This document shows, piece by piece, positions 4,332 to 33,223 of a DNA stretch of 41,846 nt. The stretch comes from Chiloscyllium plagiosum (taxonomy: Eukaryota): contig NW_025214872.1 of NCBI RefSeq assembly GCF_004010195.1, positions 11,671 to 53,516 of the forward strand. Reading direction: 5' to 3'. A model generated the notes under the pieces. It had not been told where the DNA came from. It saw nothing but the letters and a program-made list of their open reading frames with translations, and did no database searches. Each line of letters begins with the position of its first letter. The first letter of the stretch is position 1. The position numbers were made by a program, and so were the translations under genes.

Positions 4332-4925
4332 CATATGGAATACACCATTAACGTTGACCACAACAGGATGAAATTGGCCGAGATCACAAACAGTAAAATG
4401 ACAGATTTTTGCCGATTTCTCATTTCTGAATCACAATGAGCGTTAGCATTATTGTGAGTTCGGAGTCGCCTGCGGGCTCTGCTGGTCACCAAAATGTGTC
4501 TGACGGTGAAAACATTGAGCAGCAATATCAGAAGAAATGGGACAGCCAGGGTTAGAATGTGGTGGAGGAACTCGATTGGGATCCCGACTCGGGAGTAACG
4601 GACATCCTTTATAACATCACAAAACCAAGGGGCGTTCTCCAGCCAATACTTACCTGTGAACATAAAATACCAGAAAATGTTCTTCAAACAGCTCAGCACA
4701 GTCACTGTTCCGAGTACCACAGCCGCCGTCTTTTCACTGCAATATTTAATTTTCAGCTTCTGGCAACAAATGGCTATAAATCGATCAAAGGTGAAACTGA
4801 CGGTGACCCAAACAGAACAGTCAATGGCTGCATAAAGCAGGACAGCGTGGATATTACACACGGGGATGTAATATATGAAATGAAACTGTTCATAATACAC
4901 AAAAGGAAGGTGTCTCACTATCAAG
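4332..4925 (-). pseudogene. GPR139/GPR142-like class A GPCR, exon 2 distal part (end of TM2 to TM6)
   Basis: Open frame LIVRHLP..CNIHAVLLYAAIDCSVWVTVSFTFDRFIAICCQKLKIKYCSEKTAAVV..VPFLLILLLNVFTVRHILVTSRARRRLR..EMRNRQKSVILLFVISANFILLW. Shows a DRF variant of DRY, hydrophobic TM segments and family-typical CSVW.TV.FTFDRF.AICC. Interrupted upstream by CR1. Confidence 0.88.
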
Positions 4926-5302
4926 GAGTGCGAGCAGCAGCTGAGTTTATACAAACCCGGAAGGCTACAGCTAAGATGAGACAGTTTGTTTTAAAATTAC
5001 TTACCAGTAGCGGGCAGCGGTGTTTTTTGTTCTCTTCACAGAAAGAGCGGGAGCAGCAGGGGGAAGTGACGACGACCAGAGGGGCAGCGGAAGCTGCTGT
5101 GGCGCAAGCTTACCTAGGTAGGTTTTTTTTCCTATAAAAGCGCGCAGGAGAGGAACCCGAGGCACTATCGAGGTAGTGCCTCCCACCCTCCCTCCTCCTC
5201 TCACCTAATAATAAGACCCGTTGTGGAAAGTAGTTAATTGCTGCATTTTGCTTGTTGTATTGTTTAGACCTTTTTAAAAAAATAAACCTTACTTTTAGAG
5301 GG

Positions 5303-6237
5303 ATGGCAGTGAAGGCAGTGCAATGTTCCTCTTGAAACATGTTTGAGGTGAGGGATGCCATGGTCGTCCCTGCTGATTACACTTGCAGGAAGTGCACCCA
5401 TCTCCAGCTCCTCCAAGACCGTGTTAGGGTGCTGGAGCTGGAGTTGGATCAACTTAGGATCATTCGGGAGGCAGAGGGGGTCATAGATCGGAGCTTTAGA
5501 AAGTAGTAACTCCAAAGATTGCAGACAGATGGGTGACAGTGAGGGGGACTGGGAGGAAGCAGCCAGTGCAGGGAACCCCTGCGGCCGTTACCCTCAAGAA
5601 CAAGTATACCGTTTTGGATACTTCTTGGGGGGACGACTAACCAGGGGTAAGCAATGGGGTTCAGGCCTCTGGCACGGAGCCTGCTCCCATTGCTCAGAAG
5701 GGAAGGGTGGAGAAGAGCAGAGCAATAGTTATTGGGGACTCGATAGTTCGGGGCACAGATAGGCGGTTCTGTGGGGGCGAGAGAGACTCACGTTTGGTAT
5801 GTTGCCTCTCAGGTGCACGGGTACGTGACGTCTCTGATCGTGTTTTCCGGGTCGTTAAGGGGGAGGGGGAGCAGTCCGAAGTCGTGGTCCACATTGGCAC
5901 CAACGACATAGGTCGGAGGAGGGCTGAGGATATTAGGCAGGCTTTCAGGGAGCTAGGTTGGAAGCTCAGAGTTAGAACAAACAGAGTTGTTGTCTCTGGT
6001 TTGTTACCGGTGCCACGTGATAGAGAGTCCAGGAATAGGGAGAGAGAACAGTTAAATGCGTGGCTAACGGGATGGTGCAGGAGGGAGGGATTCTGGTATC
6101 TGGATAACTGGGGTTCTTTCTGGGGAAGGTGGGACCTCTATAAACAGAATGGTCTACACCTGATCTTGAGGGGCACCAGTAACCATGGGGGGAGGTTTGC
6201 TAGTGCTCTTGGAGGGGGGGGGGGGGGTTTAAACTAA
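5303..6237 (+). pseudogene. CR1 ORF1: zinc finger/leucine zipper plus SGNH esterase domain, disrupted
   Basis: MAVKAVQCSS*NMFE..YTCRKCTHLQLLQDRVRVLELELDQL (two CxxC, one Cys lost to TGA, then Leu heptads); after a frameshift IVIGDSIVRG, SGARV, VHIGTND, NGLHL (GDS/G/N/H blocks). Confidence 0.9.
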
Positions 6238-6349
6238 CTCTTCAGGGGCATGGGAACCTAGACTGTAGCTTTAGGGTACAGGACCTGGGGTGTAGGGAGG
6301 TTAGGAACATGGCATCAATCTCATAGGAGGGTGCCTGTAAACGGAAAGT

Positions 6350-7040
6350 GGCTTGATGTGTATATAATTCAATGCAAGAATTACACAAAATAAGGTAGGT
6401 GAACTTGCAGCGTGGGTTGGTACCTGGGATTTCGATGTTGTGGCTATTACGGCGACATGGGTAGAACAGGGACAGGATTGGCTGTTGCAGGTTCCAGGGT
6501 TTAAATGTTTTAGTAGGGTCAGAGGTGGGGGTAAAAGAGGGGGAGATGTGGCAGTGCTTGTCAAAAATAGTATTACAGCGGTGGAAAGGACGATGGATGA
6601 AGACTCGCTATCCGAGGTAGTTTGGGTTGAGGTTAGGAATAGGAAAGGTGAGGTCACCCTGTTAGGAGTTTTCTACAGGCCTCCGAATAATCCTAGAGAC
6701 GTAGAAGAAAGGATTGCGAGGATGATTCAAGAGAAGAGTGAAAGTAATGGGGTGGTTGTTATGGGGGACTTTAACATTCCAGATATTGACTGGGAAAGCT
6801 ATAGCTCGAGTTCGTTAGATGGGTCGGTGTTTGTCCAATGTGTGCAGGAGGGTTTCCTGACACAATATGTAGATAGGCCAACAAGAGGTGAGGCCATACT
6901 GCATTTGGTTCTGGGTAATGAACCAGGCCAGATGTTAGAATTAGAGGTAGGTGAGCACTTTGGGGACAGTGACCACAATTCGGTGACCTTTACTCGAGTG
7001 ATGGAGAGGGATAAGTGTGCACTACAGGGCAAGAGTTATA
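6350..7040 (+). pseudogene. CR1 ORF2 apurinic-like (APE) endonuclease domain
   Basis: FNAR, AITATW, GVFYRPPN, VMGDFN, RPTRGEAILHLVL, GDSDHN motifs. Confidence 0.92.
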
Positions 7041-7106
7041 GAGGACCTGAAGAGAGAGCTAAGAGCAGCAAGGAGGGGACATGAAAGGTCCTGAGTTGGT
7101 AGGATT

Positions 7107-8630
7107 ATGGAAAACCCTAAGGCTTTCTATAGGCATGTCAGGAATAAAAGAATGACTAAGGTAGGAATAGGTCCAGTCAAGGATAGTAGTGGGATGTTGC
7201 GTGTGGAGGCTGAAGAGATTGGGGAGACACTGAATGAATACTTTTCGTCAGTATTCACTCAGGAACAGGACATTGTTGCCGATGTGAATATTGAGTCACA
7301 ATTAATTAAAATGGACGGTTTTGAGGTATGTAGGGAAGAGGTGTTGGACATTCTGGAAAGGGTGAAAATAGATAAGTCCCCTGGGCCTGATGGCATTTAT
7401 TCTAGGATTCTCTGGGAAGTAAGGGAGGAGGTTTCAGAACCATTTGCTTTGACTTTGATGTCCTCGTTGTCTACAGGAATCGTGCCAGCAGACTGGAGGA
7501 TAGCAAATGTGGTTCCCTTGTTCAAGAAGGGGAGTAGGGATAACCCTAGTAACCATAGGCTGGTGTGTCTGACTTCTGTTGTGGGCAAAGTCTTAGAGAG
7601 AATTGTAAGGGATAGCATTTATGAACATCTGGATAGGAATTATGTGATTAAGGATAGTCAGCATGGTTTTGTGAAGGGCAGGTCGTGCCTCACAAACCTT
7701 ATTGAATTCTTTGAGAAGGTGACTAAGGAGGAAGACGAGGGTAAAGCAGTAGATGTGGTGTATATGGATTTTAGTAAGTCGTTTGATAAGGTTCCCCATG
7801 GAAGTCTACTGCAAAAAATACGGAAGCTTGGTATTGAGGGTGAATTGGAGTTTTGGATTAGGAATTGGCTGGCTGGAAGAAGACAGAGTGTAATAGCTGA
7901 TGGTAAAGGTTCATCTTGGAGTGCAGTTACTAGCGGTGTTCCGCAAGGATCTGTTTTGGGACCATTGCCGTTTGTCATTTTTGGAAATGACCTGGAGGAG
8001 GGGCTAGAAGGTTGGGTGAGCAAGTTTGCGGATGATACGAAAGTCGGTGTAATTGTTGACAGTGAGGAAAGATGCGTCAGGTTACAGCGGGATATAGATA
8101 AGTTGCAGAGCTGGGCAGAAAGGTGGCAAATGGAGTTCAATGTAGGTAAGTGTGAGGTGATTCACTTTGGTAAGAGTAACAAAAAGACGGGGTACTGGGC
8201 TAATGGTCGGATACTTGGTAGTGTGGATGAGCAAAGGGATCTTGGTGTCCATGTACACAGATCTCCGAAAGTTGCCACCCAGGTAAATAGTACGGTNNNN
8301 NNNNNNNNNNNNNNNNNNNNNNNNNNNNNNNNNNNNNNNNNNNNNNNNNNNNNNNNNNNNNNNNNNNNNNNNNNNNNNNNNNNNNNNNNNNNNNNNNNNN
8401 NNNNNNNNNACCATGAGGACCTTTTTCCACGTATGGAGTCAGCTATTACGAGGGGGCATAGCTTTAAATTAAGGGGTGGTAGGTATAGGACAGATGTTAG
8501 GGGTAGGTTCTTTACTCAGCGAGTCGTGAGTTCATGGAATGCCCTGCCAGTAGCAGTGGTGGACTCTCCGTCTTTATGGGCATTTAAACGGGCATTGGAT
8601 AGACATATGGAGGATAGTGGGCGAGTGTAG
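7107..8630 (+). pseudogene. CR1 ORF2 reverse transcriptase and C-terminus (gap 8297-8409 inside)
   Basis: KSPGPDG, WRIANVVPLFKKG, SQHGF, DFSKSFDKVPH, GVPQGSVLGP, KFADDTK, TRGH..FFTQRVVSSWNALP; separated from the APE by a deletion and frameshift. Confidence 0.95.
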
Positions 8631-8714
8631 GTTTGGTGGGCTTGGATCGGCGCAACATCGAGGGCCAAAGGGCCTGTACTGCGCTGTGTTTTTCTATGTT
8701 CTATGTTCTATAAG

Positions 8715-8826
8715 TCAAGAATAATGACCAGTAGATCTTCCACTGTCATAGCACCCAGGTAATGGTTGACACACGGAGACAATCCACAATCTTTCGCAAG
8801 GAGGACATAGATCGTCACGATGTTAA
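8715..8826 (-). pseudogene. GPR139-like GPCR exon 2 proximal part (end of TM1 to TM2)
   Basis: Minus strand tttgtttgttttccatcctcacag|TT AAC.. (acceptor AG at 8828-8827, phase 1) translates (V)NIVTIYVLLAKDCGLSPCVNHYLGAMTVEDLLVIILD and continues in frame into LIVRH at 4925. Confidence 0.9.
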
Positions 8827-9339
8827 CTGTGAGGATGGAAAACAAACAAATTATGCATCATCCTGGAGACAACTTATCCGTTTGTTTGATGACCCAGTGA
8901 CATTTTCGATAATGTCACTGCGTTCAGAAATTTATTAAAATAAATGGACCTGAAATAACAAATTGGAAGTTCTGAATTAATGACAAAATTGTGTCATTAA
9001 CCGCAAGAAACCTTCCCTCCCCAAGCACACGGAGATACATTCATTAAAAAAAAGATGCTTTCTCGAACATTCCCACATACCTGATCACTTGAGAGTTTAA
9101 ATACGGAGGGGAAAAATTTTGCCGTCTGAAGGATTCTCACCCAGTTCCTTAAAGACAACCGCACATTGGAAATTTCTGTCTTTTAGACTAAATTGTGATC
9201 GATCCTCTGTCGTGTAGATATGTACACGCAGGGAAAATGTATTCACCTCTTTAAATGCCCGAACTGGACCTGCTTTCAATTGCAAAAGGATATCTCCCCT
9301 CCGGATCTTTTCTTTTGTTCAAATCACTGACGTTCATAA

Positions 9340-9666
9340 ATACTGTCAGTGAAAGAGTATTCCTGGGAATGTCAGTTACAGGATGTTTTGGAAAATGTTG
9401 GTTATAGAGTTTTCCAGAGAAGGTCAGTTATAGAATGTTCTGGGAAAATCATTTATCCATTGTTTCAGAAAATGTAGGTTGCAGAATGCTCTGGAGAATG
9501 TCGGTAATATAATGTTCTGGTGTATGTCAGTTGTAGAATGTTCCGGGGAACGTCGGGTATAAAATGTTCTGGACAATGTCAGTGATAGAATCTTCCAAAG
9601 GATGTCTGTTACAAAGTGTTCAGGGGAATGCCAGCTATAGAATCGTGGGGAATGTCAGGTCCAGAA
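9340..9666. repeat. 26-bp minisatellite, about 12 diverged copies
   Basis: ggagaatgtcggtaatataatgttct / ggtgtatgtcagttgtagaatgttcc / ggggaacgtcgggtataaaatgttct / ggacaatgtcagtgatagaatcttcc in direct succession. Confidence 0.9.
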
Positions 9667-10119
9667 GGTAATAGTGTCATGAAGATCCACATCACAAACG
9701 CATTTCTGCCTATTCAGTTTACTGAGACTCACTCACCTTCACGGTGGGAATCTCTCCCAAACCTCAACTGGCACTTTGCTCCAAAAGCAATATGGTGAAG
9801 ACAATATCTCGATCATTTGATGAAAAATCCTTTTTTACAATCATGCAGACGCCATCCCTTATTCCGAGATCTCCCCCACCTCCTTTAAGTTGTTTGTATA
9901 ATACTTCAAAATATGAAATGTTTTCTATTTTCAGTTTCCAATAACAGTCATCCTGCAATCAGGTCTCGCTGATGCCATTAAATCATATGAATTTCCCCTC
10001 AAAGTATGAAGTGAATTCCTTGATCTATTTTGAGGATACAACACAAATTTTGATAGAAGACCTTTCGTTCAGTTTTTTAACCCAATAATCCCTGCTTCAT
10101 TGTTCCCTTTATTCCTCAT

Positions 10120-10920
10120 AATGACCAATCAGGAAAAAAAGGATGAAATTCTCAGACTCACAGAATCAGTACTGATAGGCAGTGTTTCACGAAGCTCCAT
10201 CACGATCCCTGGGCAGATGCTGTGCCACTGATAGGGCAGACCCACCACTGGGTGTACCGTGGTCTGCATTCAGGGTCTCAGATATCTTGGAATTGCTGAA
10301 CATTGATTCCAGAACTCGAGAAATCTCATGGCAGCAGTTCTCGGAAATCTCCTGAGTATGGACATCCATTGTCGTCCACACCAGCCTTTGTTGATCAATA
10401 TGTCACTATTGATGAAGAAAATAAATCAGAAGAAACGCAGAGTGTGGCAATGACACAGAGCGTACTGTGGGTCTGAGACTTCAATGTTGATCACCAAGAG
10501 TGTCTCCAAAATCTCACCAATGATTTAGCAGAGCAAGGACTTAAACACATAGCAGCCAGACTGTGGGAACTGATGGATGAGCCAACAAGAGGAATACATT
10601 CTCACCAAACTACTTGTCACAAATGGATGTGACCAAAACAACATCTGGAGGAGCAGCCAACACATAGACCTGGCGCTGTGAATTTCTCAGCCTCATATTG
10701 AAGATACCGCCTACTCTGTTATCTTGCCAAGTTGGACATACGTCCAAGGGACCGAGAAACTGGAAACCCGGCATTCATGAGGCACTGTGGGCTACCAGCA
10801 GCTGCAAAATCAATGTCCTTGTCTCCATCATAAAGTCAGAGGTGAGCTGTTTCAAAACGTTGGTTTCAAAACGTTCGGCACCACTCACAACTACACCTAC
10901 ACTGAAGCACACCATTCAGC
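10120..10920 (+). mobile_element. Highly decayed LINE endonuclease fragment of a second CR1/L2-group family
   Basis: Remnant motifs ITIPG (atcacgatccctggg), LWV*DFNV.HQE (ctgtgggtctgagacttcaatgttgatcaccaagag), EPTRG; related sequence at 30250-30660. Confidence 0.55.
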
Positions 10921-11049
10921 GAATCAAGAGTTTTAAACAGCAACAGAATGAGGCCATTCAGCCATTCGAGGCTGTTGCTCAGCAATTCGAGCAGATCATG
11001 TAATCCCTCATGTCTGTCACATAGGGAATGTAAAGAAACATTTAGACTT

Positions 11050-11400
11050 TCAAAGCTGCTGCATAGGAGGGTTGGTTACAGAATCACAAGACACGATTAA
11101 ATGGACAAATTAATCTCTATGAGTTTAACGCACATCAACAACTACAGTGACGCAGTGATCAGTGCTGGGTCCACATCCAAACTTTCCCAATGATTTTGAT
11201 AAATGGAAGAAATGTGTTCTAATTAAATACATCAGAGACGCTACGATAACCAGGAAACGGAGTTGTCAACAGGACATGGAGAGTCAGTAATTCGATAAGG
11301 AATAGCAATTTTGCAGATGGAAAATAACGTAGTTCATTGTGAACCTGTGATTTTTTTAGGAAAAATAAAAGGGTGAATATTTTCTAACGAAAATATCTAC
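11050..11400 (+). mobile_element. Highly decayed CR1-like RT fragment
   Basis: gatcagtgctgggtcc (GSVLGP-like), gcagatggaa (WQM-like) in the expected order. Confidence 0.5.
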
Positions 11401-12129
11401 GGGACTTTAGAACAGAGTGTTTACTGGAAGGTTAACTCTGACGCGTTCAGACACTAGATGTGTTGTTCCATCTGCCTGATGATCACTTTCCTTAATGTTC
11501 CCACTGGCATAACTGCTGTCAATGCACACAGGATATTTCATGTTGTTGGTTGGTGGTGGGGAAATGTGAGGGGCAGTGTGTATTGGACCGTTTATCAAGG
11601 CCGTTATCCGAGATGCCATTCTTCCTTTTGTCGTGGAGACCCGAAGACGATGGCACAGTAGGTAATCACCAACGTGATATACTGTGCATGGTCACACTGA
11701 AACGTCAATGGAGGGAGACAAGTGGTCCAATCACAAGAATAAAATAAAGACTTTTCCGTATTCACAGAAGTGTTTTGCCTCATCACATTCTCAATTCGCC
11801 GCACAGGGCCAACCCAAACACCATAAACCCAAAGAAAATAACTATTCAGTCAGAAGCACTGCGTCAGAAGCGCTATTCTGTACAATTATGCAAACTGCTC
11901 AGAGGCAAACACTGTGTTGACCAGACCATTTGCAATGATCTATAAACCCGGCCGAGATATCTGTCCAGAATGCGAGCTGTGCAGACCGCAGCACTAGAGC
12001 CTTTTTCCATACCTTTCTGAGTGGAGCACTATACAAAGGATTGAGATGGATTTTGTTACACCTTTTCTTACTTTTAATGGATTTTGATGTGCTCTGCAAA
12101 ATTATAATGAGAATGAGTTAAAACATTTA

Positions 12130-12345
12130 CCCGGATTGATGCACATCCCCTGCACATTCCTGAAGAGTATGAGCAACTGAGCATGACGAATTGCGCTGCA
12201 CTGCACATCTTGCATTGCGGGAGAAACTGGAGCACCTAGACAACACCCACACAGACATGGGGAGGATGCGCAAACACCACACGTACAATCGCCCGAGGGT
12301 GGAATCAAAACAGGTTCCTCAGCGCTATGAGACAGCAGTGCCAAG
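12130..12345 (-). mobile_element. Decayed HE1-type SINE
   Basis: gcacatct..gggagaaactggagcacc..acccacacagacatggggaggatgcgcaaacaccacac..ggaatcaaaac..tgagacagcagtgc, the reverse complement of the V-domain and head. Confidence 0.8.
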
Positions 12346-12939
12346 AAGTGAGGTTCAGCGCTGCCTGAACATGGACCTAACATGGTGCAATAACTGACAT
12401 TAGAAACGTTTCACTACACTCATCAGATTGCACAGGCAATCAAACTAATTTAATTCAAATGTGAGACAGTCACTGTGTTTGATGCCTTTTCCAAACAAAG
12501 CTGCTGCTTGGAATGGAGAGGCCATCAGAGCCTGGTATAAACAGGAGTGCGTGAGACAGACCGAGAAGGGAAAAGAGTGAAAAGGGACATTTTCATTCCC
12601 GTTTCAATGAATTAATTCCCAAAACGACAGAATTCCGAATGCTCAGTGATACAGATGCAAATTAATACAATACAAATCACACACAAAGACAGAGGAAAAC
12701 ACAGAAACAAATGCATGCTAACACAACAAATATTTAGTCACATGCAAACATTCACACACTCAAGCCAATAATCTAATTAAATATGACCATGGATCATCTG
12801 AAGTAGACCTCTACGTTGTTCCCTCTTGTGAGTACGACAGGGCAGATGGCTGAGCTGTGAGAGTGAGAGAACTATCGTACCAGTGACCGTAATTCTATTA
12901 GTTTGAGAACACTTCTGGAAACGAATACGCCAGGTGGAC

Positions 12940-13284
12940 AACTAAACGTTATACTTTGGGACAAGGATAATTATGACAGTATTAAGCAGGAACTTTCAAA
13001 AGGTGATTGGGGAAAGCTGTTTCCGGGTAAATGAGTGGCTGATAAGCAACATTCTTTCAAAGATGAGACAACGAGCGTTCAGGGACAACTTGTTCCTTTT
13101 AGTGTGAAGGGTAATTCTCGCAGAAGTGGGGTCCAGTACATGACGGGGGATATTGCCGTTCTCGTCAAGAAAACAATGTAGAAATTACATGTTAGGTCTC
13201 GGCAAGTGGGATCAAGTGAATCACTTGAAGAGCAGACGGAATGTAGGAGTACACTCAAGAGGAAAATCAGGAGAGCAAAAAGGG
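12940..13284 (+). mobile_element. Old CR1 ORF2 fragment (APE-RT linker)
   Basis: ttatgacagtattaagcaggaact..gattgggga; ends ctcaagaggaaaatcaggagagcaaaaaggg (LKRKIRRAKR), matching 7045-7080. Confidence 0.75.
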
Positions 13285-13527
13285 TGTGACGATGCTGCTC
13301 TTTTAACAAGGTAAAAGAGTTCTTGGTTTTTTTTCAGTGTCGGAAATGACACACACTCCGAAAAATCTGGGTGTGCAAGTTTTTTTAGTGCAAGTTTGAT
13401 TGTAGGTCATTGATACCCTTTCAGGTTCAAGTCATTCGTGCTTTTTCAAAAAGAAACTTGCAATTTGAAAGGGGCGTGGTCACGTCTCCCAGCTCAGCTT
13501 ATTCTGGTTTGATTTATTGTGATTGGG

Positions 13528-14085
13528 AACATCAGAACATAACAGAACATGAGAACTCGGTGCAGGAGTATGCTGCCCAGGCCTTCGTGCCTACTCTTTC
13601 ATTCAACAATATAATGGCTGTCATTTTCTTGGACCCAGGTCCACGTAGTCGCACTCTCGGCGTACCCCTTAATTATTTTATTTTTCATAAAAACGTTTAC
13701 CTTAGCTTTAAAAACGTTGACTGAAGTAGCGTCAACTCGGTGTCAAGGGCACCCAGGTAGCTGCATGATAGCATGCTACACCTTCATTTCCCATTCAAGT
13801 AACATTCTGTTTTTACTGATTCTCCGACCTAAATGTATGACCACTGGATTATTAACGTTGTATTCCATCTGTCAGACCTCTACCCACTCACTCAATGTAT
13901 CTATGTTCCTCTGCAAATTCTCACAGTCCTCTGCATAGTTGGCTATGCCGTCCATCATAGTGCCATCTGCAAACATTGACACTGTGCACACGGTACCTAT
14001 TTCGAAATCATTTATTTAAATTCTGAATAATTTCGGTCCCAACACTCATCATTAAGCCACACCATTCGTCATGGATTGCATCATT
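13528..14085 (-). mobile_element. CR1 3' fragment nested in the LTR
   Basis: Starts with reverse-complement tail aacatcagaacataacagaacat; ccatctgcaaac is the reverse complement of FAD; gtattccatctg resembles reversed WQME. Confidence 0.7.
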
Positions 14086-14461
14086 AAGTTGGTATAATTT
14101 ATTGTGTATTTGAACAGTTAAGTTATTTTGTATTCTGCTCCATTTTGTTTGTATTTCATTTGTTAATGTGGTATACAGGTTCCGTATTATTTTAACTAAG
14201 TGGTTTGTCCAGTTGAATCACCCCTGGAATATGCACGTTAAACCTGGTTAAAACAACTGACAATTTATTGTTTTGGCTACCTTTTTGAAATGTTTTGAGA
14301 AGGTCTTGCCTTGTTCCTGAAAGATAGAGGTTCTTTGCAGGTTTTGTTTTGTTTGATACTTGCGAATTGGGATTGCATTCTTAGACTAGAAGGAATTGCG
14401 TCGCAGCTCGATAGATCTACAAATAGACGAGCATGAAATAGTGTATATTAGATTGACTTCA

Positions 14462-14530
14462 GATCGATTCCACCTGTGAGCGCAACATCGTGCGCCTGTA
14501 CTGCACTGTGATGTTCTATGATCTATGTTC
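14462..14530 (+). mobile_element. Very short CR1 3' tail
   Basis: gcgcaacatcgtg..gcctgtactgcactgtgatgttctatgatctatgttc resembles 8650-8710. Confidence 0.75.
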
Positions 14531-15114
14531 AATGTTGTTTGTGATGTATTTTGTTCTGGGTGGTGAATAAGGTTCGTTTAAACAGTGCTTCGTATAACAT
14601 TTGCCCTTTCAGTCACCATTAATTTACCGGAGGTGGAAGAAGTTACCTTGGGTTTATGAAAGAAGGTAATTAAGACCAAGCGGCTGGAGTTAGCGGACAA
14701 GTTGGAATTGGAGATGCCTCTCCCCGTGAGGAAAGTGGATATAACTACAAAGATACATCAGCATTTAAATTTGCTGGAACCGCCATCAGACCTTCATAGA
14801 CAGCTAACATTCAGTTGAACATGTCGCACCTTGCGTTTGAGGGAAACGGCATGGAATTATGATAAAAAGCAGAGAGATGAGAAAAATCAATAGAGATAGG
14901 GAATAGAGAGAAAGAGAAGTGAAGGGGACGAGAGAGAGAGAAGAAAGGAAGAAAGAGGGGGTTTGAACTTCACAAAGTGGCACGAAGAAAGGAGATCAAA
15001 ACTTCACTTTCTGAAGCAGTGAGGACTCACGTGGAAGTGCGGAGAGATGAAACGGCAAGATCAGCAGCTGGAATGGCTGACATTTATGAATTGGTTCAAA
15101 AGTCAAAGATCGTC

Positions 15115-15341
15115 AGGACTGAAGTTAGGGGTAGGTTCTTCACTCAGCGAGTCGTAAGTTCATGGAATGCCCTGCCAGCAGCAGTGGTGGACTCTCCCTC
15201 TTTATGGGCATTTAAGCGGGCATTGGAGAGGTATATGGAGGATAGTGGGTTAGTATAGGTTAGGTGGGCTTGGATCGGCGCAACATCGAGGGCCAAAGGG
15301 CCTGTACTGCGCTGTATTCTTCTATGTTCTTCTATGTTCTA
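15115..15341 (+). mobile_element. Young 5'-truncated CR1 3' end, same family as 4926-8711, inserted in gag
   Basis: Close match to 8488-8710 (RGRFFTQRVVSSWNALP..WAFKRAL; gggccaaagggcctgtactgcgctg; ttctatg tail). Confidence 0.93.
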
Positions 15342-16594
15342 CGGTAAAAAGGAAACACTTGAAGTGGAAAGAGAAGTTTAAAAAATCTCACACGTTTTTC
15401 CTCAAAAAGGTAGGCCACGTGAAATCACAGTGTTGGTGGGTTAGGAAAAACATTGGGAATTAAAAGAAAGAACAAGCCAATGAATTTGGTTGGAGCCGCA
15501 TCAAAAAGCGCAGTGAAGGTTAGAAAGCTGCACCAATATGTACAAGCTGGTCAAAAGTTGGTTCAAGAGCAGGTACCACATCTTCTTAAACCATTTACTG
15601 TAAAGGAAAGGTTTATTCGCATTTGCCAGGAGCAGTAGTTTAACAGGTTACAATATTAAGAGTTACAGTTTGCTCTCAATCTGTATGTTGAAAGATGAAG
15701 ACATAAGTACTTCTGACGGCTTACTTCCAAAAAAGTTCTGTGTAACGAGAATTTAAGGTGAGACAATAAAAGCTTAATTATGCAAAGTGAGGTTAAAATG
15801 TCCAGTGAAGAGTGGAAAATTCGCAGAAGAGCAGAGACCACTAGAAATGTGGCATCAGAAAGTAAAGACCATGTTGAAGTCTAATTGTAAAATCTATCCA
15901 GATGATGGGAAAAAGGAATTCAGTTTGTGTGTTTTGTGATCAGCGAAACAACACATGAATCAACGAAATTTCAGTCCATTTTAATTACTTGGGCATGAAG
16001 TGAGAAGAACAGAAAAATTGTTTGAGGATAAATTGTTAAGTCAGCATTCACAGACCACGTATTTGGAGTATGCATAAAATTTTGATCATAACTAAATAGA
16101 GTGGGGAGTTGGCTAGACAGCATTTGAATGTATCACACCATACAATGGAACAGAAAGCATACATGAAATAAAAAGTGCCGTTTTGCTCCCAGGCATAAGG
16201 TGTTCATAGTATTTCCAGTGTTAAGTGAACCTTTACAATTAAGGTTCAGCGGAAATTATCAAGGCAATAGCATAATTCAGTGTGGTGAACTCTACACAGA
16301 AAGGAATCTCACAAAGTGTGTCATGTGAATATGTTCAAAAGGTGTTTGGACAGGGAAGGAAAGCAAAAGAAGACTATGGTAATGAGTACAACACAGAAGG
16401 GAAACCCAAGTTCAGATGATTCTGAATCGAACATACATAAAATTAAATTGGGCAATGACGAAGTTGTCAAAACTGGGATAAATTATTCAGATACCTTCCA
16501 ATGGAAAATCGAAATGACCTGAAAGTGTTATTACGATCATATGGAGGGATACGTGGAAATAACATGGCAAGTACTAGACGAATTATTTTTGATT

Positions 16595-16725
16595 GAAGAC
16601 GTGAGGACTGGAGATGGTGGAGACCAAGTCGAAGGGCATGGTGATGTAAAATCACAAACAATCAGGCAGCATCTGAGGAGCAGGAGAATCGAAGTTTCTC
16701 GAATATAACATCTCCATTAGAATTG
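16595..16725 (-). mobile_element. Decayed Penelope terminal-repeat mini-insertion
   Basis: gtgaggactggagatggtggaga..tcaggcagcatctgaggagcaggagaatcgaagtttc, same family as 17652-17786 and 21722-21815. Confidence 0.75.
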
Positions 16726-16798
16726 GTTAAATGAGTATAGGAAGATAGTCTACCAGTATACTAATGGCAAAAGGAATCTTGTTTTTGTATTCTTCCCC

Positions 16799-17082
16799 GT
16801 GGGTGGCACGGTGGCTCAATGGTTAGCACTGCACCGGGAACCCGGGTTCGATTCAAGCCTCGGGTGACTGTGTAGAGTTTGCACACTCTCTCCGTGTCTG
16901 CGTCGGTATGCTGCAGTTTCCACCCACAGTCCCAAGATGTCCAGGTCAGGTGAATTGGCCATGCTAAATTGTCCCAGACGGTTTGGTGCATGAGTCAGAG
17001 GGAAATGGATCTAGGTGGGCTATTCTTAGGAGGGTGGGTGTGGACTTATTAGGCCGAAAGACCTGTTTCCACACTGTACGGA
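16799..17082 (+). mobile_element. HE1-type SINE
   Basis: gggtggcacggtggctcaatggttagcac (A box), ggttcgattc (B box), V-domain, tail ggccgaaagacctgtttccacactg. Confidence 0.9.
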
Positions 17083-17651
17083 ACCAAGAAAATAAAAATC
17101 AAAGAGTCATCTATGAGCGTAAGCACTGCAGTATAACTTGCTTTTTTTCATATTTATTGTCACATGTCCTCACTCAAAGGTTACAAGTTGCAACACACCA
17201 CACAACCTGAGGTGCGAAGATAAACCACGCTAACCGCGCCGTCCTCATAGAACAGCATCGTTTCACAAAGTAGAAAAGTGGTTAAATGTAAAACACTGTT
17301 GTTATTCCGCTAAAAGTGTAATAATAAAGAAATACGTTTCGACCCCGAGTTCATAAGTGCCTGGTCATGCTGGGTTCACACTGATCACAATGAATCGACG
17401 TCCCTCGATTCTCTGTTGTACAGCCTGTGCCCACTCCATGGTGAAATCCTACATGAGTACATACTGTGAATAAAAACATGGAAGCTCGGGAACTCGGGGA
17501 AATAAATGCAAGTCGTGATGTTTTTAAATTAGGCCACATGATGGAAGAGGAATTCTGGAGGTCTGTAATATGTTAACTGGAGATAAATGTCCGGGGGTTT
17601 ACAGGTTTGCCCCAGGTCATTGTGGGAAGCTAGGGAGACATTTTGGACATT

Positions 17652-17786
17652 TTGATTCCTGAAGAAGGGCTTATGCCCGAAAAGTCGATTCTCCTGTTGC
17701 TTGGATGCTGCTGACCTGCTAAGCTTTTCCAGCAACACATTTCCAGCTCTGATCTCCAGCATCCGCAGATCTCACTTTCTCCTCGA
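17652..17786 (+). mobile_element. Penelope terminal-repeat mini-element with hammerhead motif and 14-bp target duplication
   Basis: ctgaagaagggcttatgcccgaaaagtc..ggatgctgctgacctgct..tccagcatccgcag; agacattttggaca at 17636-17649 and 17787-17800. Confidence 0.85.
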
Positions 17787-17828
17787 AGACATTTTGGACA
17801 CCATAATGAAATATTTCCATCGTTCCTC

Positions 17829-17965
17829 GAAGTTCTGGGGAAGGGTCACTGGATCCAAAACGTTAACTATCATTTCTCTGCACAGATGCTTCCAGACCTG
17901 CTGAAATACATCAACAACCTTTGTTTTTGTTTCTGCTTTACAGTGTCTGCAGTTCTTTCTTTTTG
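17829..17965 (+). mobile_element. Second Penelope terminal-repeat family mini-insertion
   Basis: ttctggggaagggtcactggatccaaaacgttaact..cacagatgcttccagacctgctga; similar to the end of the Penelope at 29535-29620. Confidence 0.7.
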
Positions 17966-19799
17966 TTACTTGTATCATTGACAACCACGGTTGCGGTGCT
18001 GGAAGAATGGAAGACAGCTAACGTTGTGAAAGGGGTGCTGCTGATGTCAGGCGTGGGTAACTGTTGGTAGGAAATTCTTAGAGACAGGACTTACATGCAT
18101 TCGGAAAGGAAAGAACAGAATTGGTATAGTCAGCATAACTTGGTGTGTGAGGGAAAAGTCTCTCATAAACTTGACTTAACTTTTCCAAGTGGTGACAAAG
18201 CAGATAGATGAAGGTAAAGCATCATATGTTGTCGTCGTGGACATCAGTGAGGCCCAACATGGCTCTGCATGGTAGACATTTTAAAGGAAATCAGCGAGAG
18301 TAGCCAATTAGATACACGATTCGCTTGACAGTAGGAGACAGAGGTCGCTGGCATTGGTTCGTTGTTTCAACTAGAGGCCTGTGAGCAGCTGCGTATCACA
18401 AGGATCGGTAATTGGTCCACTGATGTTCGTTATTTTATCAATAATTTGGATGAGAATATAGGAAGCAGACATAATAAGAGTTGAGACGACTCAAAATTGG
18501 CGATATACTGGACAGTAAGGAGTGTTATCTAAGCGGACAATGATATCTTAATCAACTGGGTCAGTAGGCCGAGCAATGGCACATGGTGCATCATACAGTT
18601 AAATGCCATTTGCTGCATTTTAGTTTGAAAAAACAGGGCAGGATTTACACAGTAAACAATCGGGCTTTGGGGAGTGTTGTTAAACGGACAGAACCGAGGT
18701 GCAGTTGCAGGGTTCCTTGAAATGGATTCGCAAATTGACAGGGAAAGTATGAAATTATTAGGCACTTTACAGTCCATCTGTCAAAGCACTGAGAATAGTG
18801 GTCGGAACGTCACGTTATGACTGCACAACGGTAAATACAATTCTTGTCGACCTGTTATATGAAGAATGTCATAAACTGGAAAGGATACAAAACATTTAAA
18901 GTGATGTGACAGAGATTGGAATATTTGAGACACAATGATAGGATGGGCAGCGTCGGACTTCACGTTTGCACTGGAGGATGAGGGGTAACCTTCTGGAGGT
19001 TTATAAAATCATGTCAGACAAAGATAGGAAGAACAGCAAAGGTCTTTACCCCAGGGTAGAGATCTCCAGAAGCGGAAGGCAAAGGATTACGTTGGCAGGG
19101 AAGAGATTTAAACGAGATCTAAGTGGCAGCTGTTTTTCACAGAGGGTGGTGTGTACTTGGAACGAGCTACGAAACAAAGTGGTAGAGGCGAGTACAATTA
19201 CAACATTTTAAAGACAGTTAGACGGGTAAATACATGGGGAAGTGTCAGAGGTTTAAGTGCCAAATGAAGCTAAATCGGACTAGTTACGCTTCGGAAAACT
19301 GATGAGCATGAACGATTTGGGTTAAAGTGTCTGTTTATATATTGCACTACTTCAAGAGTCTATGACTTTGCAACTCATATTTCTTAAAAAAAAACTTTCG
19401 TTACACTCCAGTCATTTCCAAGTCAAATACCCTTTGTAAATGCTTTCAGCGATCTAGTTCTCCCAACTGGCTTTAATAGAGAATTGTTAATGATCACAGT
19501 AGATATAATAAAGGCCCTCCCACCATTCCTGCCAAAGGAATGAAGACTTGTTCTGTATCACAAACAGTGCCGCTGTGGAAGCTGTTTCATTCCAACTCCA
19601 ACTCTGACGTCGACCCACTGCAACTTGGACGATGACTTAACTGTGCCCAGTCCCCAAGAAGAGGTTAATTACATTCTGCACAACTTCCATCCCCATCAGG
19701 ACCACCATGATAATCAAATAGGTGCGATTTTTTTTTTGACAGAACTGTCAGGAAACACAGAAATAACTTCCTCAGTGTGATTTCTTATAGATCCCTACG

Positions 19800-20290
19800 T
19801 GGAGGTGGAGCCGTTGTGGAAATTTCGCTAGATTACTAATCCCAAAAAGGCTAATGCTCTGGCAGTTGGTGGAAGTTAAAAAAACAATTGATAAACTATT
19901 GAAATGTAAAATCTACTGTCCGTAATAGTCACCCTGAAGCGAATGGCTTTTCTCCACCCAGATTTGCTTCACCAATATACGTGCAGGAAGTAAAATTCCC
20001 GTGATTTCCTGGCCTGGCCTAGAAGTGTCGCCAGACACACAGACATGTGATAAACTCTACAATTCTCTCTGAAAAGACCAAGTAAGACAGTCAATTGTGT
20101 CAACTTCTCTGAGTTCTTCAAGTATAATCCCAGAGATAACACCCGACAGCAGCCTTTGTATTAGAAAAGGGAACGGGAAACACAGTCAGTCCTGCAGAAG
20201 GCGCATGGCTAACATCTCAGAGCTTGCGACAACACTTCCAGAGCTTTATCACTGACTGCAAAGAAACATCAAGAAAGAAATAGGCTTTTT
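19800..20290 (+). mobile_element. Decayed interspersed repeat, probably the 5' end of the LINE family at 10120-10920
   Basis: cctggcctggcctagaagtgtcgccagacacacagacatgtg and ctaacatct..gagct resemble a common shark repeat as I recall it; not verified. Confidence 0.4.
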
Positions 20291-21373
20291 CATATCATTG
20301 GGATGTCCTATTCTAGTTATAGGGCGATTATCACTTCAGTGCAATTTTTCCATACAACATGCACACTTCACAATATGATTATAAATATAAAATATGTATT
20401 ATTAACGGCAGTGGTCCCTTCCGTCTATCAGTTTTGCTCCAACTTTCAACATAATGTTGGCCCATTCTGTTTCTCCACACCATTTTCGTGCTCTCCCCCC
20501 ATACCTACAGAATCGAGAAATTCTTATATATATCATGTCTTTTGGCTTCCACATCCTCATGTGTTCGAAAATTAGTCAGGTTCATCTGTCTCTGAGTGTC
20601 AACATTTGTTCTCATCTCAATGCAGTATTGCCAGCCTGCATGTAAGACTGTGACCACTTAGCGTCAATGGTCAACAGACGGCTCTCTCATACAAGTCAGA
20701 TGACCAGGCTTTTTGAACAATGTTCAAGGGGCTGCCCCATGTAATTGAGCGCACGATCAGCTGAGAAGGACAGTCACAGGCATTCAGTGGCCAGGAACAG
20801 GCCAAGTGTCAACGACGTGAGTCAATAATGCTGAAACCTGGCCAACGCGAAGCACCACGTGGGGCACACTGTGAAGTGAACAGGAGCGCGAGGTGAACAT
20901 TTTTTACATTCTTTGTGAGCTTTGTAAAGATGGAAGCTGATCGATCAAGGAGACAAAGACGAAAAGGTAGGTTAAGATAGAGAGGGACATATATTTGCGT
21001 TATAATTGGACTCTTACTTAATCGAAACCAAGCTTCACAATAATAGAGTTTGGCACAAGAAGGGGAATAGCTGGGTTGAGAATTTGCCAGATCCAATCAC
21101 AAGAATGAGAACAGAAATTAAGTGTGCTTCATGATCAGATAAATGGATAATTGTATCACACAGCAATTCACTTTACAAATAGCCTCGATACCAGAAAAAT
21201 GAAAGAATATCTGTTCTGATTTTAGCACTGTGCAGACCAGGGTATGCGACTGCACAATACATCCCGTCAAAATATGCAGAGAGCAAAACTCTGCATGGCA
21301 TAGCAGTGCGTTGATTTTTTAAAAAGTGGAATAGACGGCATGGTGAGCTGTGTTGATGACAACACTGATTTTG

Positions 21374-21720
21374 TAGAATCACAGAGATTACCGCACTTAA
21401 ACAGACCCTTCAGTCCCACTAGTCCATGCCGACCAGATACCCGAACCGAATCTATTCCTATTTACAGCTACACTCTTCCCATTCAGACATCCTTCCAGAT
21501 GCCTTTTAAATGCTGTAATTTGAATTTTTTCCACCACCTCTTTCATTCAATACACTGACCACAATCAGCATGAAAACGTTGCCGCATGGTTTCCTTTTAT
21601 ATATTTATCCTACCAAACTAAACCTGTGTCCTGTAGTTCTGGAATTCCCCAAATATGGAAAAGACCTTTACAATTTATTCTACTCATGCCTCTCATGATT
21701 AAAAAGACTCTGAAAGGTCA
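21374..21720 (-). mobile_element. CR1/HER1 3' end fragment
   Basis: tagaatcacagag..aaacagacccttcagtcc..tccagatgccttttaaatgctgt..ctctcatgatt, the reverse complement of a CR1 C-terminus and tail. Confidence 0.8.
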
Positions 21721-21721
21721 T

Positions 21722-23364
21722 TGCTGAAAATGTGTTGCGGGAAAAGCGCAGCGGGTCAGGTAGCATCCAAGGAACAGGAGAGCCGACGTTTCGGGCATAA
21801 GCCCTTCTTCAGGAATGAGGAAAGTGTGTCCAGCAGGCTAAGATAAAAGGTAGGGAGGAGGGACTTGGGGGAGGGGCGTTGGAAATGCGATAGGTGGAAG
21901 GAGGTCAAGGTGAGGGTGATACGCCAGAGTGGGGTGGGGGCGGAGAGGTCAGGAAGAAGATTGCAGATTAGAAAAGCGGTGCTGAGTTCGAGGGATTTGA
22001 CTGAGACAATGTGGGGGAGGGGAAATGAGGAAACTGGAGAAATCTGAGTTCATCCCTTGTGGTTGGAGGGTTCCAAGGCGGAAGATGAGGCGCTCTTCCT
22101 CCAACCGTCGTGTTGCTATGGTCTGGCGATGGAGGAGTCCAAGGACCTGCATGTCCTTGGTGGAGTGGGAAGGGGAGTTGAAGTGTTGAGCCACGGGGTG
22201 GTGCAGTTGGTTGGTCCGGGTGTCCCAGAAGTGTTCTCTGAAACGTTCTGCAAGTCGGCGGCCTGTCTCCCTAATATAGAGCAGGGCACATCGGGTGTAA
22301 CGGATGCAATAAATGATGTGTGTGGACTGTCCTGATGGCGGTTGGGGGGGCGGGGCATAAGGGCGGAGGAGCGTGAAGTGGAGGAGATTCGGTGGAGGGC
22401 ATCGTCGACTACGTCTTGGGCGAAATTGCAGTCTTTGAAGAAGGAGGCCATCTGGGTTGTATGGTATTGGAACTGTTCCTCCTGGGAGCAGATGCGGCGG
22501 AGACGAAGGAATTGGGAATATGGGATGGCGTTTTTACAGGTGGCAGGGTGGGAGGAGGTGTATTCTAGGTCGCTGTGGGAGTCGGTCGGTTTATAGTAAG
22601 TGTCCATGTTGATTCGGTCGCCCGAGGTAGAAATGGAAAGGTCTCGGAAGGGGAGGGAGGAGTCTGAGACGATCCAGGTGAATTTGACGTCGGGGTAGAA
22701 GGTGTTGGTAAAGTGGATGAACTGTTCAACCTCCTCGTGGGAGCACGAGGCAGCGCTGAAACAGTCAACGATGTAGCGGAGGAAAAGGTCGGAGGTGGTG
22801 CCAGTGTAGCTGCGGAAGATGTACTGTTTCACATATCCTACGAAGAGGAAGGCATACCTGGGGTCCATGCGGGTGCCCATGGCTACTGCTTTGGTTTGGA
22901 GGAAGTGGGAGGATTTGAAAGAGAAGTTGTTTAGGGTGAGGACCAGTTCAGTCAGTCGAAGGAGGGTGTCAGTGGAAGGGTACTGGTTGGTACGGGGGGA
23001 AAGGAAGAAGCGGAGAGATTTGAGTCCTTCGTGATGGGGGATGGAGGTGTACAGGGACTGGATGTCCATGGTGAAGATAAGGCGTTGGGGACCGGGGAAG
23101 CGAAAATCATGGATGATTGGAGGGCGTGGGTGGTGTCCCGAACGTAGGTGGGGAGTTCTTGGACTCAGGGGGACAGGACCGTGTCGTGGTATGCAGAGAT
23201 GAGTTCGGTGGTGCAGGAGCAGGCTGAGACAAAGGGTAGGCCGGGGCCGTCGGGTTTGTGGAGTTTGGGCAGGAGGTAGAAACGGGCGGTGCGTGGTGGT
23301 GGGACTATGAGGTTGGTGGAGGTGATGAAGTTATGGGTGGCCTGGGAGCTGATGGTGTGGTGGT
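21722..23364 (-). mobile_element. Penelope-like element (Neptune-type), RT + GIY-YIG, internally deleted, runs into gap
   Basis: RFYLLPKLHK, MDIQSLYTSIPH, AMGTRM, LRYIVD (YIDD), YYKPTDSH, IPYSQFLRLRRICS; GIY-YIG IYCIRYTRCALLYIRET..RFREH; LGTLQPQGMN; deletion at ~22330. Confidence 0.93.
21781..21816 (-). ncRNA. Minimal type I hammerhead ribozyme motif in the Penelope 3' repeat
   Basis: Minus strand attc-CTGAAGA-a-GGGC-ttat-GCCC-GAAA-CGTC: both core boxes, 4-bp stem II, palindromic ACGT stem III; stem I is weak. Confidence 0.65.
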
Positions 23365-24409
23365 NNNNNNNNNNNNNNNNNNNNNNNNNNNNNNNNNNNN
23401 NNNNNNNNNNNNNNNNNNNNNNNNNNNNNNNNNNNNNNNNNNNNNNNNNNNNNNNNNNNNNNNNNNNNNNNNNNNNNNNNNNNNNNNNNNNNNNNNNNNN
23501 NNNNNNNNNNNNNNNNNNNNNNNNNNNNNNNNNNNNNNNNNNNNNNNNNNNNNNNNNNNNNNNNNNNNNNNNNNNNNNNNNNNNNNNNNNNNNNNNNNNN
23601 NNNNNNNNNNNNNNNNNNNNNNNNNNNNNNNNNNNNNNNNNNNNNNNNNNNNNNNNNNNNNNNNNNNNNNNNNNNNNNNNNNNNNNNNNNNNNNNNNNNN
23701 NNNNNNNNNNNNNNNNNNNNNNNNNNNNNNNNNNNNNNNNNNNNNNNNNNNNNNNNNNNNNNNNNNNNNNNNNNNNNNNNNNNNNNNNNNNNNNNNNNNN
23801 NNNNNNNNNNNNNNNNNNNNNNNNNNNNNNNNNNNNNNNNNNNNNNNNNNNNNNNNNNNNNNNNNNNNNNNNNNNNNNNNNNNNNNNNNNNNNNNNNNNN
23901 NNNNNNNNNNNNNNNNNNNNNNNNNNNNNNNNNNNNNNNNNNNNNNNNNNNNNNNNNNNNNNNNNNNNNNNNNNNNNNNNNNNNNNNNNNNNNNNNNNNN
24001 NNNNNNNNNNNNNNNNNNNNNNNNNNNNNNNNNNNNNNNNNNNNNNNNNNNNNNNNNNNNNNNNNNNNNNNNNNNNNNNNNNNNNNNNNNNNNNNNNNNN
24101 NNNNNNNNNNNNNNNNNNNNNNNNNNNNNNNNNNNNNNNNNNNNNNNNNNNNNNNNNNNNNNNNNNNNNNNNNNNNNNNNNNNNNNNNNNNNNNNNNNNN
24201 NNNNNNNNNNNNNNNNNNNNNNNNNNNNNNNNNNNNNNNNNNNNNNNNNNNNNNNNNNNNNNNNNNNNNNNNNNNNNNNNNNNNNNNTATCGAAATTTAT
24301 GGAACACGACTGTTCACGGACTTCCAGTCTTTAAAGTAGTCCCCTATCACCACACTCTGTCTCCTACTTACGATTTGCTTTTGCAGCCAAATGGCTACAT
24401 CTCCCTGTT

Positions 24410-25750
24410 CTGAATGTAGGTTTGTTCACTGAGTTGGAAGGGTCGTTCGCAGACGTTTCATCACCATACTATGCATCGTCTTTAGCGATCCTCACGATGA
24501 AGCACTGGTGCGATAGCTCGTTTTCTAATTATGTGTCTGGGAATCCTGGTTTTTGATTACATTTGCTGTGCTGTTCATTCTCTCAGGAAATGCTAAATGG
24601 GATCCAGGCGAACTTGTTTGTTGATAGAGTTCCAGTTGGAATGCAATGCTTCCAGGAATTCTCGTGCATATCTCTGTATGGCTTGCACGATGATGGATGT
24701 GTTGTTCCAGTCGAAGTATTGTCCTTCCTCATCTGGATCTAAGAATGTCAGTGAGAGTGGGCCATATCTTTTTGGAACGAGTTGAAGCTCATGTGTTCTG
24801 GTGGCTATTTCTCTTTGTATTTATCCAATGTCGTATTTGTTGCAGTTCATGCAGCATATTTTGAAAATGATATAAGATTTGCCCGATGCCTCTAAAGGGT
24901 GTTTCATATTCATTAGCTGCTGTGTTAGTGTGTTGGTGGATTTTAGGGTTTTATGATGCAAAAGGTCTGAGTAGTCTGACAGTAATTTCCGAGATGTATT
25001 GAATGTATTGGAGAGTGGCTCGGCTTTCTGGACGTGTTTGGTCTGCTTTTTTTGGGATTGTTGCTGAGAAACCAGCGGTTTGTGATTATTGGGTACTCAT
25101 TTTTTGAATACACTGTCTAGGTGATTTACCTCTGCTCTTTGTAGTTTTTCTTTGCTGCAGTGTGTGATGGCTCGTTGAAATAATATTGTAATGCATCTTC
25201 GTTTGTGGATGTTGGGATGCTTGCTTCAGTAGTTCACTATTTGCTTCGTATGTGTTGTTTTCCTGCAGATTCTGGTTTGAACTTCCACATTGGCTGTTCG
25301 CTCTACTGTGACATCTAGGAAGGTCAGTTTGTTTTTGTTTTCCTCCTCTTTCGTGAAGTTTATGCTGGTAAGCTTTTTATTGAACACCTTGAAGGTTTAT
25401 TCTAATTTGCTTCGTTTAGTGATGACAAATGTGGCATCCACAAAGCGGACCCAAAATTTGGGTTGGTTTGACGGCAGAGCTGTCTGTTCGAGTCTCTGCA
25501 TTATTTCCTCTGTTAAAATTCCTAACATTGGAGGTCCCGTTGGTGCTCAGTTGGTTTGTCTGTAGTTTTCTTTTTGTTGAAGGTGAAGTGGGTTTTAAGG
25601 GATAGGTCTCGTAGCTATAAAATATTTTCCTTGCTGATGAAGTTGCTGGAGTTTGGTGTATGTGTCTTTAGTTCTTCTTTTAGTGTAGTCCAGGTTGATG
25701 TTGTTAGATATGAATAGGGCTGTTATGTCAAAGGGTTTTGTTAAAGAGAA
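24410..25750 (-). mobile_element. Decayed Penelope-like element (Poseidon-type), 3' half
   Basis: Minus strand FDITALF, QPKFWVRFVDATFVI (YVDD-like), FTKEEE..LTFLDV, GIY-YIG remnants, and a terminal repeat ending gaaacgtctg near 24450. Confidence 0.85.
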
Positions 25751-25754
25751 ATCA

Positions 25755-26922: not shown

Positions 26923-26939
26923 GCACCCAAATGAACAGG

Positions 26940-28230: not shown

Positions 28231-28239
28231 CAAAATTTC

Positions 28240-30660: not shown

Positions 30661-30761
30661 TTGTTTTTTACTACTCAGAGGTTTACCATATCGTTGGTTG
30701 TACCATCATTTGCTGCCCATATCTAATTGACAAGAGGGAAATTCAGGGTCAAACACATTGT

Positions 30762-33070: not shown

Positions 33071-33223
33071 TAGGCTGGCAAAATACTGCTGCTGCTGCAC
33101 AGGATCGTTGTGAAGTCACAATTGGAGCAGTTTGTACAGATTTAACTGCCTCACTGAGGAAAGGACATTTGAATTAACTCAGAGATTATTCCCTCAGAGT
33201 ATTTCTGAAACAACGGTGTTCAT

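What the first reader, a model, noticed from the sequence alone, without database searches (positions are those of the whole stretch)
4332..8826. GPR139-like receptor exon split in TM2 by a near-full-length antisense CR1, with exact frame restoration
Seen: deleting 4926-8714 joins ATT CTT GA|C TTG ATA GTG AGA CAC (ILDLIVRH), giving ~235 stop-free codons from a phase-1 acceptor at 8826 through TM6. The ORF track's N-terminus (MYKLSCCSHS) is LINE sequence. The junction shows a 3-bp repeat (aag), and the tail ctataag resembles the target ctatcaag, consistent with microhomology-assisted priming. Inference: insertional death of one member of an expanded elasmobranch GPCR family, possibly recent or polymorphic.
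Basis: partly seen in the sequence, partly recalled or inferred. Interest (0 to 1): 0.7.

Follow-up and report, generated by a model that had tools for sequence, protein, structure and literature searches.

The report
Old LINE knockout of shark receptor
A common jumping gene sits inside the coding exon of one member of a very large shark receptor family, and the same broken gene is found again elsewhere in the genome about 5% diverged, so this is likely an old, dead gene copy rather than a recent knockout, an ordinary event in a large gene family.

Summary
A CR1-type LINE (4926-8711, + strand, AAG repeated at both ends) splits exon 2 of a minus-strand class A receptor; removing it gives 234 stop-free codons collinear with uninterrupted paralogs. 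Exon 1 lies at 37674. 'Recent' is not supported: the element is 4.2% from its family majority, and a 37-kb segmental duplicate on contig C8, about 5% diverged, carries both junctions, a premature stop and no exon 1. That duplicate also excludes misassembly. The microhomology argument weakens: the C of 'ctatcaag' is private to this copy. dN/dS is inconclusive. Presence/absence among individuals is unresolved: one run bridges the junction, four do not. The gene is not GPR139 proper but one of at least 150 paralogs. The scan noted this family before on other DNA, not this insertion. Verdict: likely pseudogene by old insertion, then duplicated; ordinary.

The parts
8715..8826 (-). 5' part of receptor exon 2 (end of TM1 to mid TM2), after a phase-1 acceptor
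   Evidence: (79-85% to P0024/P0017 over 39 aa)
4332..4925 (-). 3' part of receptor exon 2 (rest of TM2 to TM6); the end of the exon is in the N gap 3755-4331
   Evidence: 7tm_1, E 2.5e-10; 80% to shark proteins named probable GPR139
4926..8711 (+). CR1-type LINE, 5' end nearly complete, now broken
4923..4925 (+). AAG, 5' copy of the 3-bp target-site duplication
8712..8714 (+). AAG, 3' copy of the 3-bp target-site duplication
5303..6207 (+). ORF1 remnant with SGNH/GDSL esterase domain, frameshift near 5500
   Evidence: (Lipase_GDSL_2, E 2.6e-11)
6344..8627 (+). ORF2 remnant (AP endonuclease + reverse transcriptase); about 94 codons missing near 7040, a deletion that the C8 copy does not have
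   Evidence: (Exo_endo_phos, RVT_1)
8297..8409 (.). assembly gap inside ORF2; spans about 107 codons of the nearest full ORF2, so it is undersized
8692..8711 (+). 7-mer microsatellite tail (TTCTATG x2.9)
37570..37674 (-). exon 1 of the receptor (ATG at 37674, 35 open codons, rest in the N gap 36926-37569); close copies end in a phase-1 donor after 181 nt
   Evidence: its link to this exon 2 is inferred from the same arrangement at four close paralogs
4918..4919 (-). AG private to this copy; a predicted phase-1 acceptor that would skip the element and 40 codons in frame
   Evidence: use not shown
4678..41845 (.). block duplicated at G000:C8:65.32-65.36 Mb (89-95% in blocks), both junctions included; a second partial unit at C8:65.276-65.297 Mb

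Best explanation
A CR1-type LINE lies antisense in exon 2 of this receptor gene and puts a stop codon right after mid TM2, so the gene is likely a pseudogene, killed by one old insertion and later copied by segmental duplication. Shown: element anatomy, 3-bp duplication, the stop, the second copy with both junctions, its extra lesions. Inferred: ordinary target-primed reverse transcription with a 3-base staggered cut; a single insertion before the duplication; an age of the order of tens of millions of generations; loss of function of the window copy (nonsense decay or a two-helix fragment). Whether the block is fixed in the species is not settled.
For: Read-through stop one codon into the element. 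Exact 5' junction at only two places among 4 pattern matches, window and C8; same for the 3' flank. Both lack the ATTTT leader and share TTTATA where most copies read TTTAAA. Duplicate: 2406 mismatches in 46,188 aligned bases, 5.2%, both C8 units pooled; 5.0% over 12,791 intron bases for the junction-bearing unit. At 7e-10 per generation (PMC10587355, another shark; passages read) 5.2% is about 3.7e7 generations (my arithmetic; about 1.9e7-1.9e8 over the paper's interval) and 26 times that paper's diversity of 0.002. Element 42 of 992 columns from the majority of 30 copies. The C8 copy has TAA at codon 102 and lacks exon 1. The window copy departs from 9 columns conserved in at least 90% of paralogs, among them A29E, W151G, P163L. 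Broken neighbours are common: 8 of 15 close loci aligned show frameshifts or stops, one of them poorly aligned.
Against: dN/dS does not show release from selection: window vs C8 7 nonsynonymous and 5 synonymous differences in 119 codons, ratio 0.52, p = 0.33 against neutral, and not clearly above the 0.41 median of 325 pairs of open paralogs; private changes 12:11 vs 241:201 in others, p = 0.83. The window copy has no stop or indel in 234 codons; simulation gives 0.54 (2.6%) or 0.38 (4.2%) for no stop, and 1.26 indels are expected at the intron rate, about 0.15 jointly since the duplication (my arithmetic). Some open paralogs carry as many conserved-column changes (L013 10, L015 9, L024 13). 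No contig crosses the 5' junction in 4 of 4 runs, one of them under the same organism code as the run that does. No RNA was laid.
Confidence: 0.82

Rival explanations
1. The insertion is old but the element-bearing block still segregates: window, C8 and C5527 types are copy-number haplotypes of a receptor cluster, and some individuals lack the broken copies. Compatible with the main reading except on fixation.
For: Run X1 has a contig across the 5' junction with 0 differences over 4847-4983, but X5 (same organism code), X10, X13 and X18 have zero depth at 4921-4925. Over 9016-9124 the only listed X4 contig bears C5527-type letters, while X1 shows three types at depths near 8-9. Contigs in X1, X4, X9 join 8714 to about 4867.
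Against: These are contigs, which drop variants and are filtered; 82-85% of those runs were read; two runs of one sample gave word shares of 0.42 and 0.30. The joined contigs may be ordinary paralogs. The assembly holds all three types and no empty version of this sublineage. X1 may be the source sample.
Confidence: 0.15
2. The gene is rescued by splicing: exon 1 would join a new acceptor at 4917, skipping the element and 40 codons in frame, giving a receptor without most of TM1-TM2 that is kept by selection.
For: The AG at 4918-4919 is private to this copy, in phase, with an open frame behind it and 14 of 20 pyrimidines upstream. No stop or indel in 234 codons; ratio 0.52. Exon 1 start is open here but lost or frameshifted in the C8 units.
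Against: The tract is T-poor (6 vs 11 at the native acceptor) and similar in-phase AGs exist at 4827 and 4773. The native acceptor at 8826 is intact. Loss of TM2 with its conserved aspartate is expected to disable a class A receptor (established knowledge, not tested). Radical changes at conserved columns.
Confidence: 0.04
3. The two halves come from different paralogs joined by misassembly at the 8297-8409 gap.
For: Repeat-rich unplaced scaffold with five gaps; no single run record spans the element.
Against: A separate scaffold 5% diverged has the same order of both halves and both junctions; both halves have the same nearest paralogs, L003 and L004; the AAG duplication matches at both ends.
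Confidence: 0.01
4. The site is a hot spot and the two copies were hit independently.
For: Same base in two genes.
Against: Same 5' truncation and shared private letters; 37 kb of shared flank; no other paralog examined has an element there.
Confidence: 0.01

Closest known systems
Canonical CR1 LINEs of vertebrates (CR1 group; PMC13343379, passages read)
   Same: Esterase ORF1, endonuclease + RT ORF2, microsatellite tail, short target duplication; best named RT hits are bird and turtle proteins at about 42-53%. The paper gives CR1-group elements 22-34% of elasmobranch genomes.
   Different: 7-mer tail rather than the amniote octamer (PMC4316615, passage); this copy is broken in both ORFs.
Shark proteins annotated 'probable G-protein coupled receptor 139' / 'neuropeptides capa receptor-like' (e.g. 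P0001-P0020)
   Same: 75-80% identity over the 3' half, two-exon structure with phase-1 intron.
   Different: This copy is interrupted; its exon end lies in a gap.
Human GPR139 (PDB 7vug, 9m42)
   Same: The only solved structures matched by an intact family member, over the whole 7TM region.
   Different: Very distant (27.9 bits, E 1.4e-5); the window's 3' half finds no PDB match at 0.001; at least 150 paralogs here against one gene in human (recalled).
Birth-and-death evolution with retroelement-killed pseudogenes in olfactory, vomeronasal and MHC clusters (recalled, no call)
   Same: Tandem segmental duplication, many broken copies, duplication of an already broken copy.
   Different: The ligand and tissue of this family are not known.

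Membership tests
Canonical CR1 LINE | Esterase-type ORF1 | tested here: met
   Lipase_GDSL_2 E 2.6e-11; per PMC13343379 chondrichthyan L2 and Zenon lack ORF1
Canonical CR1 LINE | ORF2 with AP endonuclease and RT | tested here: met
   Exo_endo_phos E 4.8e-15, RVT_1 E 2.3e-31
Canonical CR1 LINE | Microsatellite 3' tail, no poly-A | tested here: met
   TTCTATG x2.9; the same tail, variably degraded, in the 14 of 16 fetched copies whose 3' end was found
Canonical CR1 LINE | Short target-site duplication (3-5 bp peak for L2 and similar for CR1, PMC4245944 passage) | tested here: inconclusive
   3 bp here; family survey 4 of 12 with 3 bp or more vs 23 of 132 mismatched pairs, 3 copies skipped, 2 without 3' end
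Canonical CR1 LINE | RT falls in the CR1 clade in a tree with curated references | tested here: inconclusive
   No tree built; named hits are bird and turtle RTs, which fits CR1 by recalled knowledge of those genomes
GPR139 ortholog | High identity to human GPR139 | tested here: not met
   P0024 vs human GPR139 27.9 bits; no hit for the window half
GPR139 ortholog | Single-copy gene at conserved synteny | tested here: not met
   150 of 150 scored candidates match at 70-85% (self 99%), 6803 candidates; synteny and the true ortholog not searched
GPR139 ortholog | Activation by L-Trp/L-Phe | not testable with these tools
   needs assay
Class A GPCR (7tm_1) | 7tm_1 match above the curated cut-off | tested here: met
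   40.7 bits vs 30.5
Duplicated (unprocessed) pseudogene | Disabling lesion in the coding sequence | tested here: met
   3.8-kb insertion with immediate stop; C8 copy also TAA and no exon 1
Duplicated (unprocessed) pseudogene | Neutral evolution (dN/dS near 1) | tested here: inconclusive
   0.52 on 12 differences
Duplicated (unprocessed) pseudogene | No functional transcript | not tested

The most novel reading that the evidence does not exclude
After an ancient CR1 knockout, this copy gained a new in-phase acceptor at 4917 that splices the whole LINE out, making a shortened receptor (lacking most of TM1-TM2) that is kept open by selection while its duplicate decayed; the block may also segregate as a very old presence/absence haplotype in a huge undescribed shark receptor repertoire.
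Probability: 0.04. Interest if true: 0.6.

Novelty: new member of a known kind. Interest (0 to 1): 0.2.

Why it matters
As it stands it is one dated example of gene death in a family of hundreds to thousands: it shows that the family grows by block duplication that also copies broken genes, so raw copy counts overstate the working repertoire, and the insertion is a clean presence/absence marker for dating the cluster across related sharks. The family is the more interesting object: four literature searches listed no paper on its expansion, and earlier scan notes already cover it.

Tried and rejected
Hot-spot lead: C8:65.686-65.690 Mb looked like a third interrupted gene but is two tandem copies, both empty. 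L002 ends at an N gap exactly at the site; its one informative base fits the empty state, undetermined. Splicing the element out as a GT/GC-AG intron near its ends: 5 in-frame pairs, all deleting 16-46 codons. Exon-1 profile from 38 of 120 proteins gave no significant hit (best E 0.51; the true exon 1 scored E 2.7); it was confirmed by DNA search. Automated duplication survey was too noisy to separate from chance. Branch-wise dN/dS was not obtained; pairwise and site counts were inconclusive. No RNA holder listed. Junction absence in contigs of X5, X10, X13, X18 proves nothing by itself; for X4, X9, X16 the tables were cut, so their junction state is unknown. Literature: GPR139+shark+expansion 4 papers (listings only), GPR139+cartilaginous fish 1 (passages read, irrelevant), shark genome+full name 0, elasmobranch/orphan GPCR/GPR142 1 (listing only); listings only. 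The library lacks most subscription papers, and no supplements were read.

Full report
Observation. On the minus strand an acceptor at 8826 opens a frame NIVTIYVLL...ILDL that stops one codon inside foreign sequence. AAG stands at 4923-4925 and 8712-8714. Removing one copy with the 3786 bases between gives 234 stop-free codons up to the N gap at 4331. Frame restoration alone is not rare (551 of 2601 nearby breakpoint pairs are stop-free), but the join is gap-free against all 28 of 29 paralog loci with sequence on both sides. The 3' half is 7tm_1 and 80% identical to shark proteins named probable GPR139; the 5' piece matches the same proteins at 79-85%.

The gene. It belongs to a very large family: 150 of 150 scored candidates out of 6803 matched, most with open frames of about 312 codons. 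The closest named proteins are from carpet sharks. An intact member matches human GPR139 only weakly (27.9 bits) and the window half finds no solved structure, so it is a distant GPR139 relative, not the ortholog. Exon 1 starts at 37674 and runs into a gap; its close copies end in a phase-1 donor after 181 nt, and the same exon lies 16-52 kb upstream of exon 2 at four close paralogs. Earlier scan notes describe this family as thousands strong and possibly chemosensory; I tested only size (lower bound) and distance from GPR139.

The element. ORF1 has an SGNH esterase domain, ORF2 endonuclease and RT, the tail is a 7-mer repeat, and named RT relatives are bird and turtle proteins. PMC13343379 (passages) says canonical vertebrate CR1s carry or cluster with esterase ORF1 and that chondrichthyan L2 and Zenon lack ORF1; PMC4245944 (passages) gives 3-5 bp duplications for L2 and similar for CR1; PMC6007223 (passages) says one to several bases of 3' overlap are usual for CR1. 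So this is an ordinary CR1-type copy. Its 5' end coincides with that of the family, less the ATTTT leader. It has an ORF1 frameshift, a 94-codon ORF2 deletion and an undersized gap; sister copies measure about 4.4-4.7 kb with gaps.

Age and duplication. The best of 40 scored relatives of the 5' end is 93% identical, and this copy differs from the majority of 30 copies at 42 of 992 columns (range of the others 1.6-5.2%). One hit carried the same receptor flank. It proved to be a duplicate of window 4678-41845 at C8:65.32-65.36 Mb with both junctions, 5.0-5.2% substitutions, a TAA at codon 102 and no exon 1. Only these two places carry the exact junction or its flank; every other locus that reaches the site is empty. 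One insertion followed by duplication is the simplest history. With 7e-10 per generation from another shark (PMC10587355, passages), 5.2% is about 3.7e7 generations, with wide bounds; ordinary alleles in that paper differ by 0.2%. The duplicate also removes the misassembly worry.

Microhomology. The tail ends CTAT and the duplication starts AAG, with no overlap. The resemblance of 'ctataag' to 'ctatcaag' needs a one-base slip, and its first C is private to this copy: the C8 copy and the six closest paralogs have A. The remaining 3-base match within one slip is found at 21% of random sites; even the 4-base match is found at 6%. Pairing-assisted priming is known for the clade but is not shown here.

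Is it dead? The stop after ILDL makes that likely. The duplicate has decayed further, and 8 of 15 close loci aligned are broken. Against: dN/dS is uninformative (7:5, ratio 0.52, p = 0.33; background median 0.41), the window copy has kept 234 codons open, which has a rough neutral chance of 0.15 since the duplication (plus my arithmetic), and a private change creates an in-phase AG at 4918-4919 that could in principle let exon 1 skip the element and 40 codons. No RNA was laid, so this stays a 4% possibility.

Polymorphism. Run X1 holds a contig across the 5' junction with no difference; it may be the source sample. Runs X5, X10, X13 and X18 show none, and X4 shows only a third, C5527-like type over 9016-9124. 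Contig sets drop variants and were read only in part, so this cannot be decided; an old copy-number polymorphism keeps about 15%.

Verdict. Observation confirmed; interpretation partly supported. An old CR1 knockout of one member of a large birth-and-death receptor family, later duplicated: a new instance of a known kind of event, interest 0.2. No paper on the family's expansion came up in four searches, and no earlier scan note on this insertion.

Noticed in passing
L035, L039, L041, L049, L058, L083, L088, L089 (just upstream of the element start): Most copies of this CR1 family start at an ATTTT leader; several carry an extra upstream element-derived unit with a TATA-like box about 30 nt before it, which fits a repeated 5' promoter unit.
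   Followed up: no
G000:C8:65,276,000-65,297,400 (L136-L138): A second partial duplicate of window 21288-41568 at 93-97%, with exon 1 shortened by 7 nt (frameshift) and no exon 2 found in the 106 kb examined other than the interrupted one.
   Followed up: partly
L117 (G000:C5527), L091, L092, L094, L095: Further close copies: an intron piece whose letters match run X4, and four exon-1 copies at 94-98% with open frames and phase-1 donors; their exon 2 was not found.
   Followed up: partly
window 9344-9643: A degenerate 26-bp tandem array about 500 bp upstream of the exon-2 acceptor; the stretch aligns in many paralogs.
   Followed up: no
window 21949-23330 (-) and 40872-41345 (+): ORF remnants that read like reverse transcriptase and GIY-YIG endonuclease of Penelope-like elements (label recalled, not tested).
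   Followed up: no
window 15115-15330: A short piece of the same CR1 3' region (90% to the C8 element) present here but not at the matching C8 position, so likely inserted after the duplication.
   Followed up: no
L105/L109 (G000:C93238), L111/L132 (C8:65.686-65.690 Mb): Closely spaced tandem copies of exon 2, several with frameshifts.
   Followed up: partly
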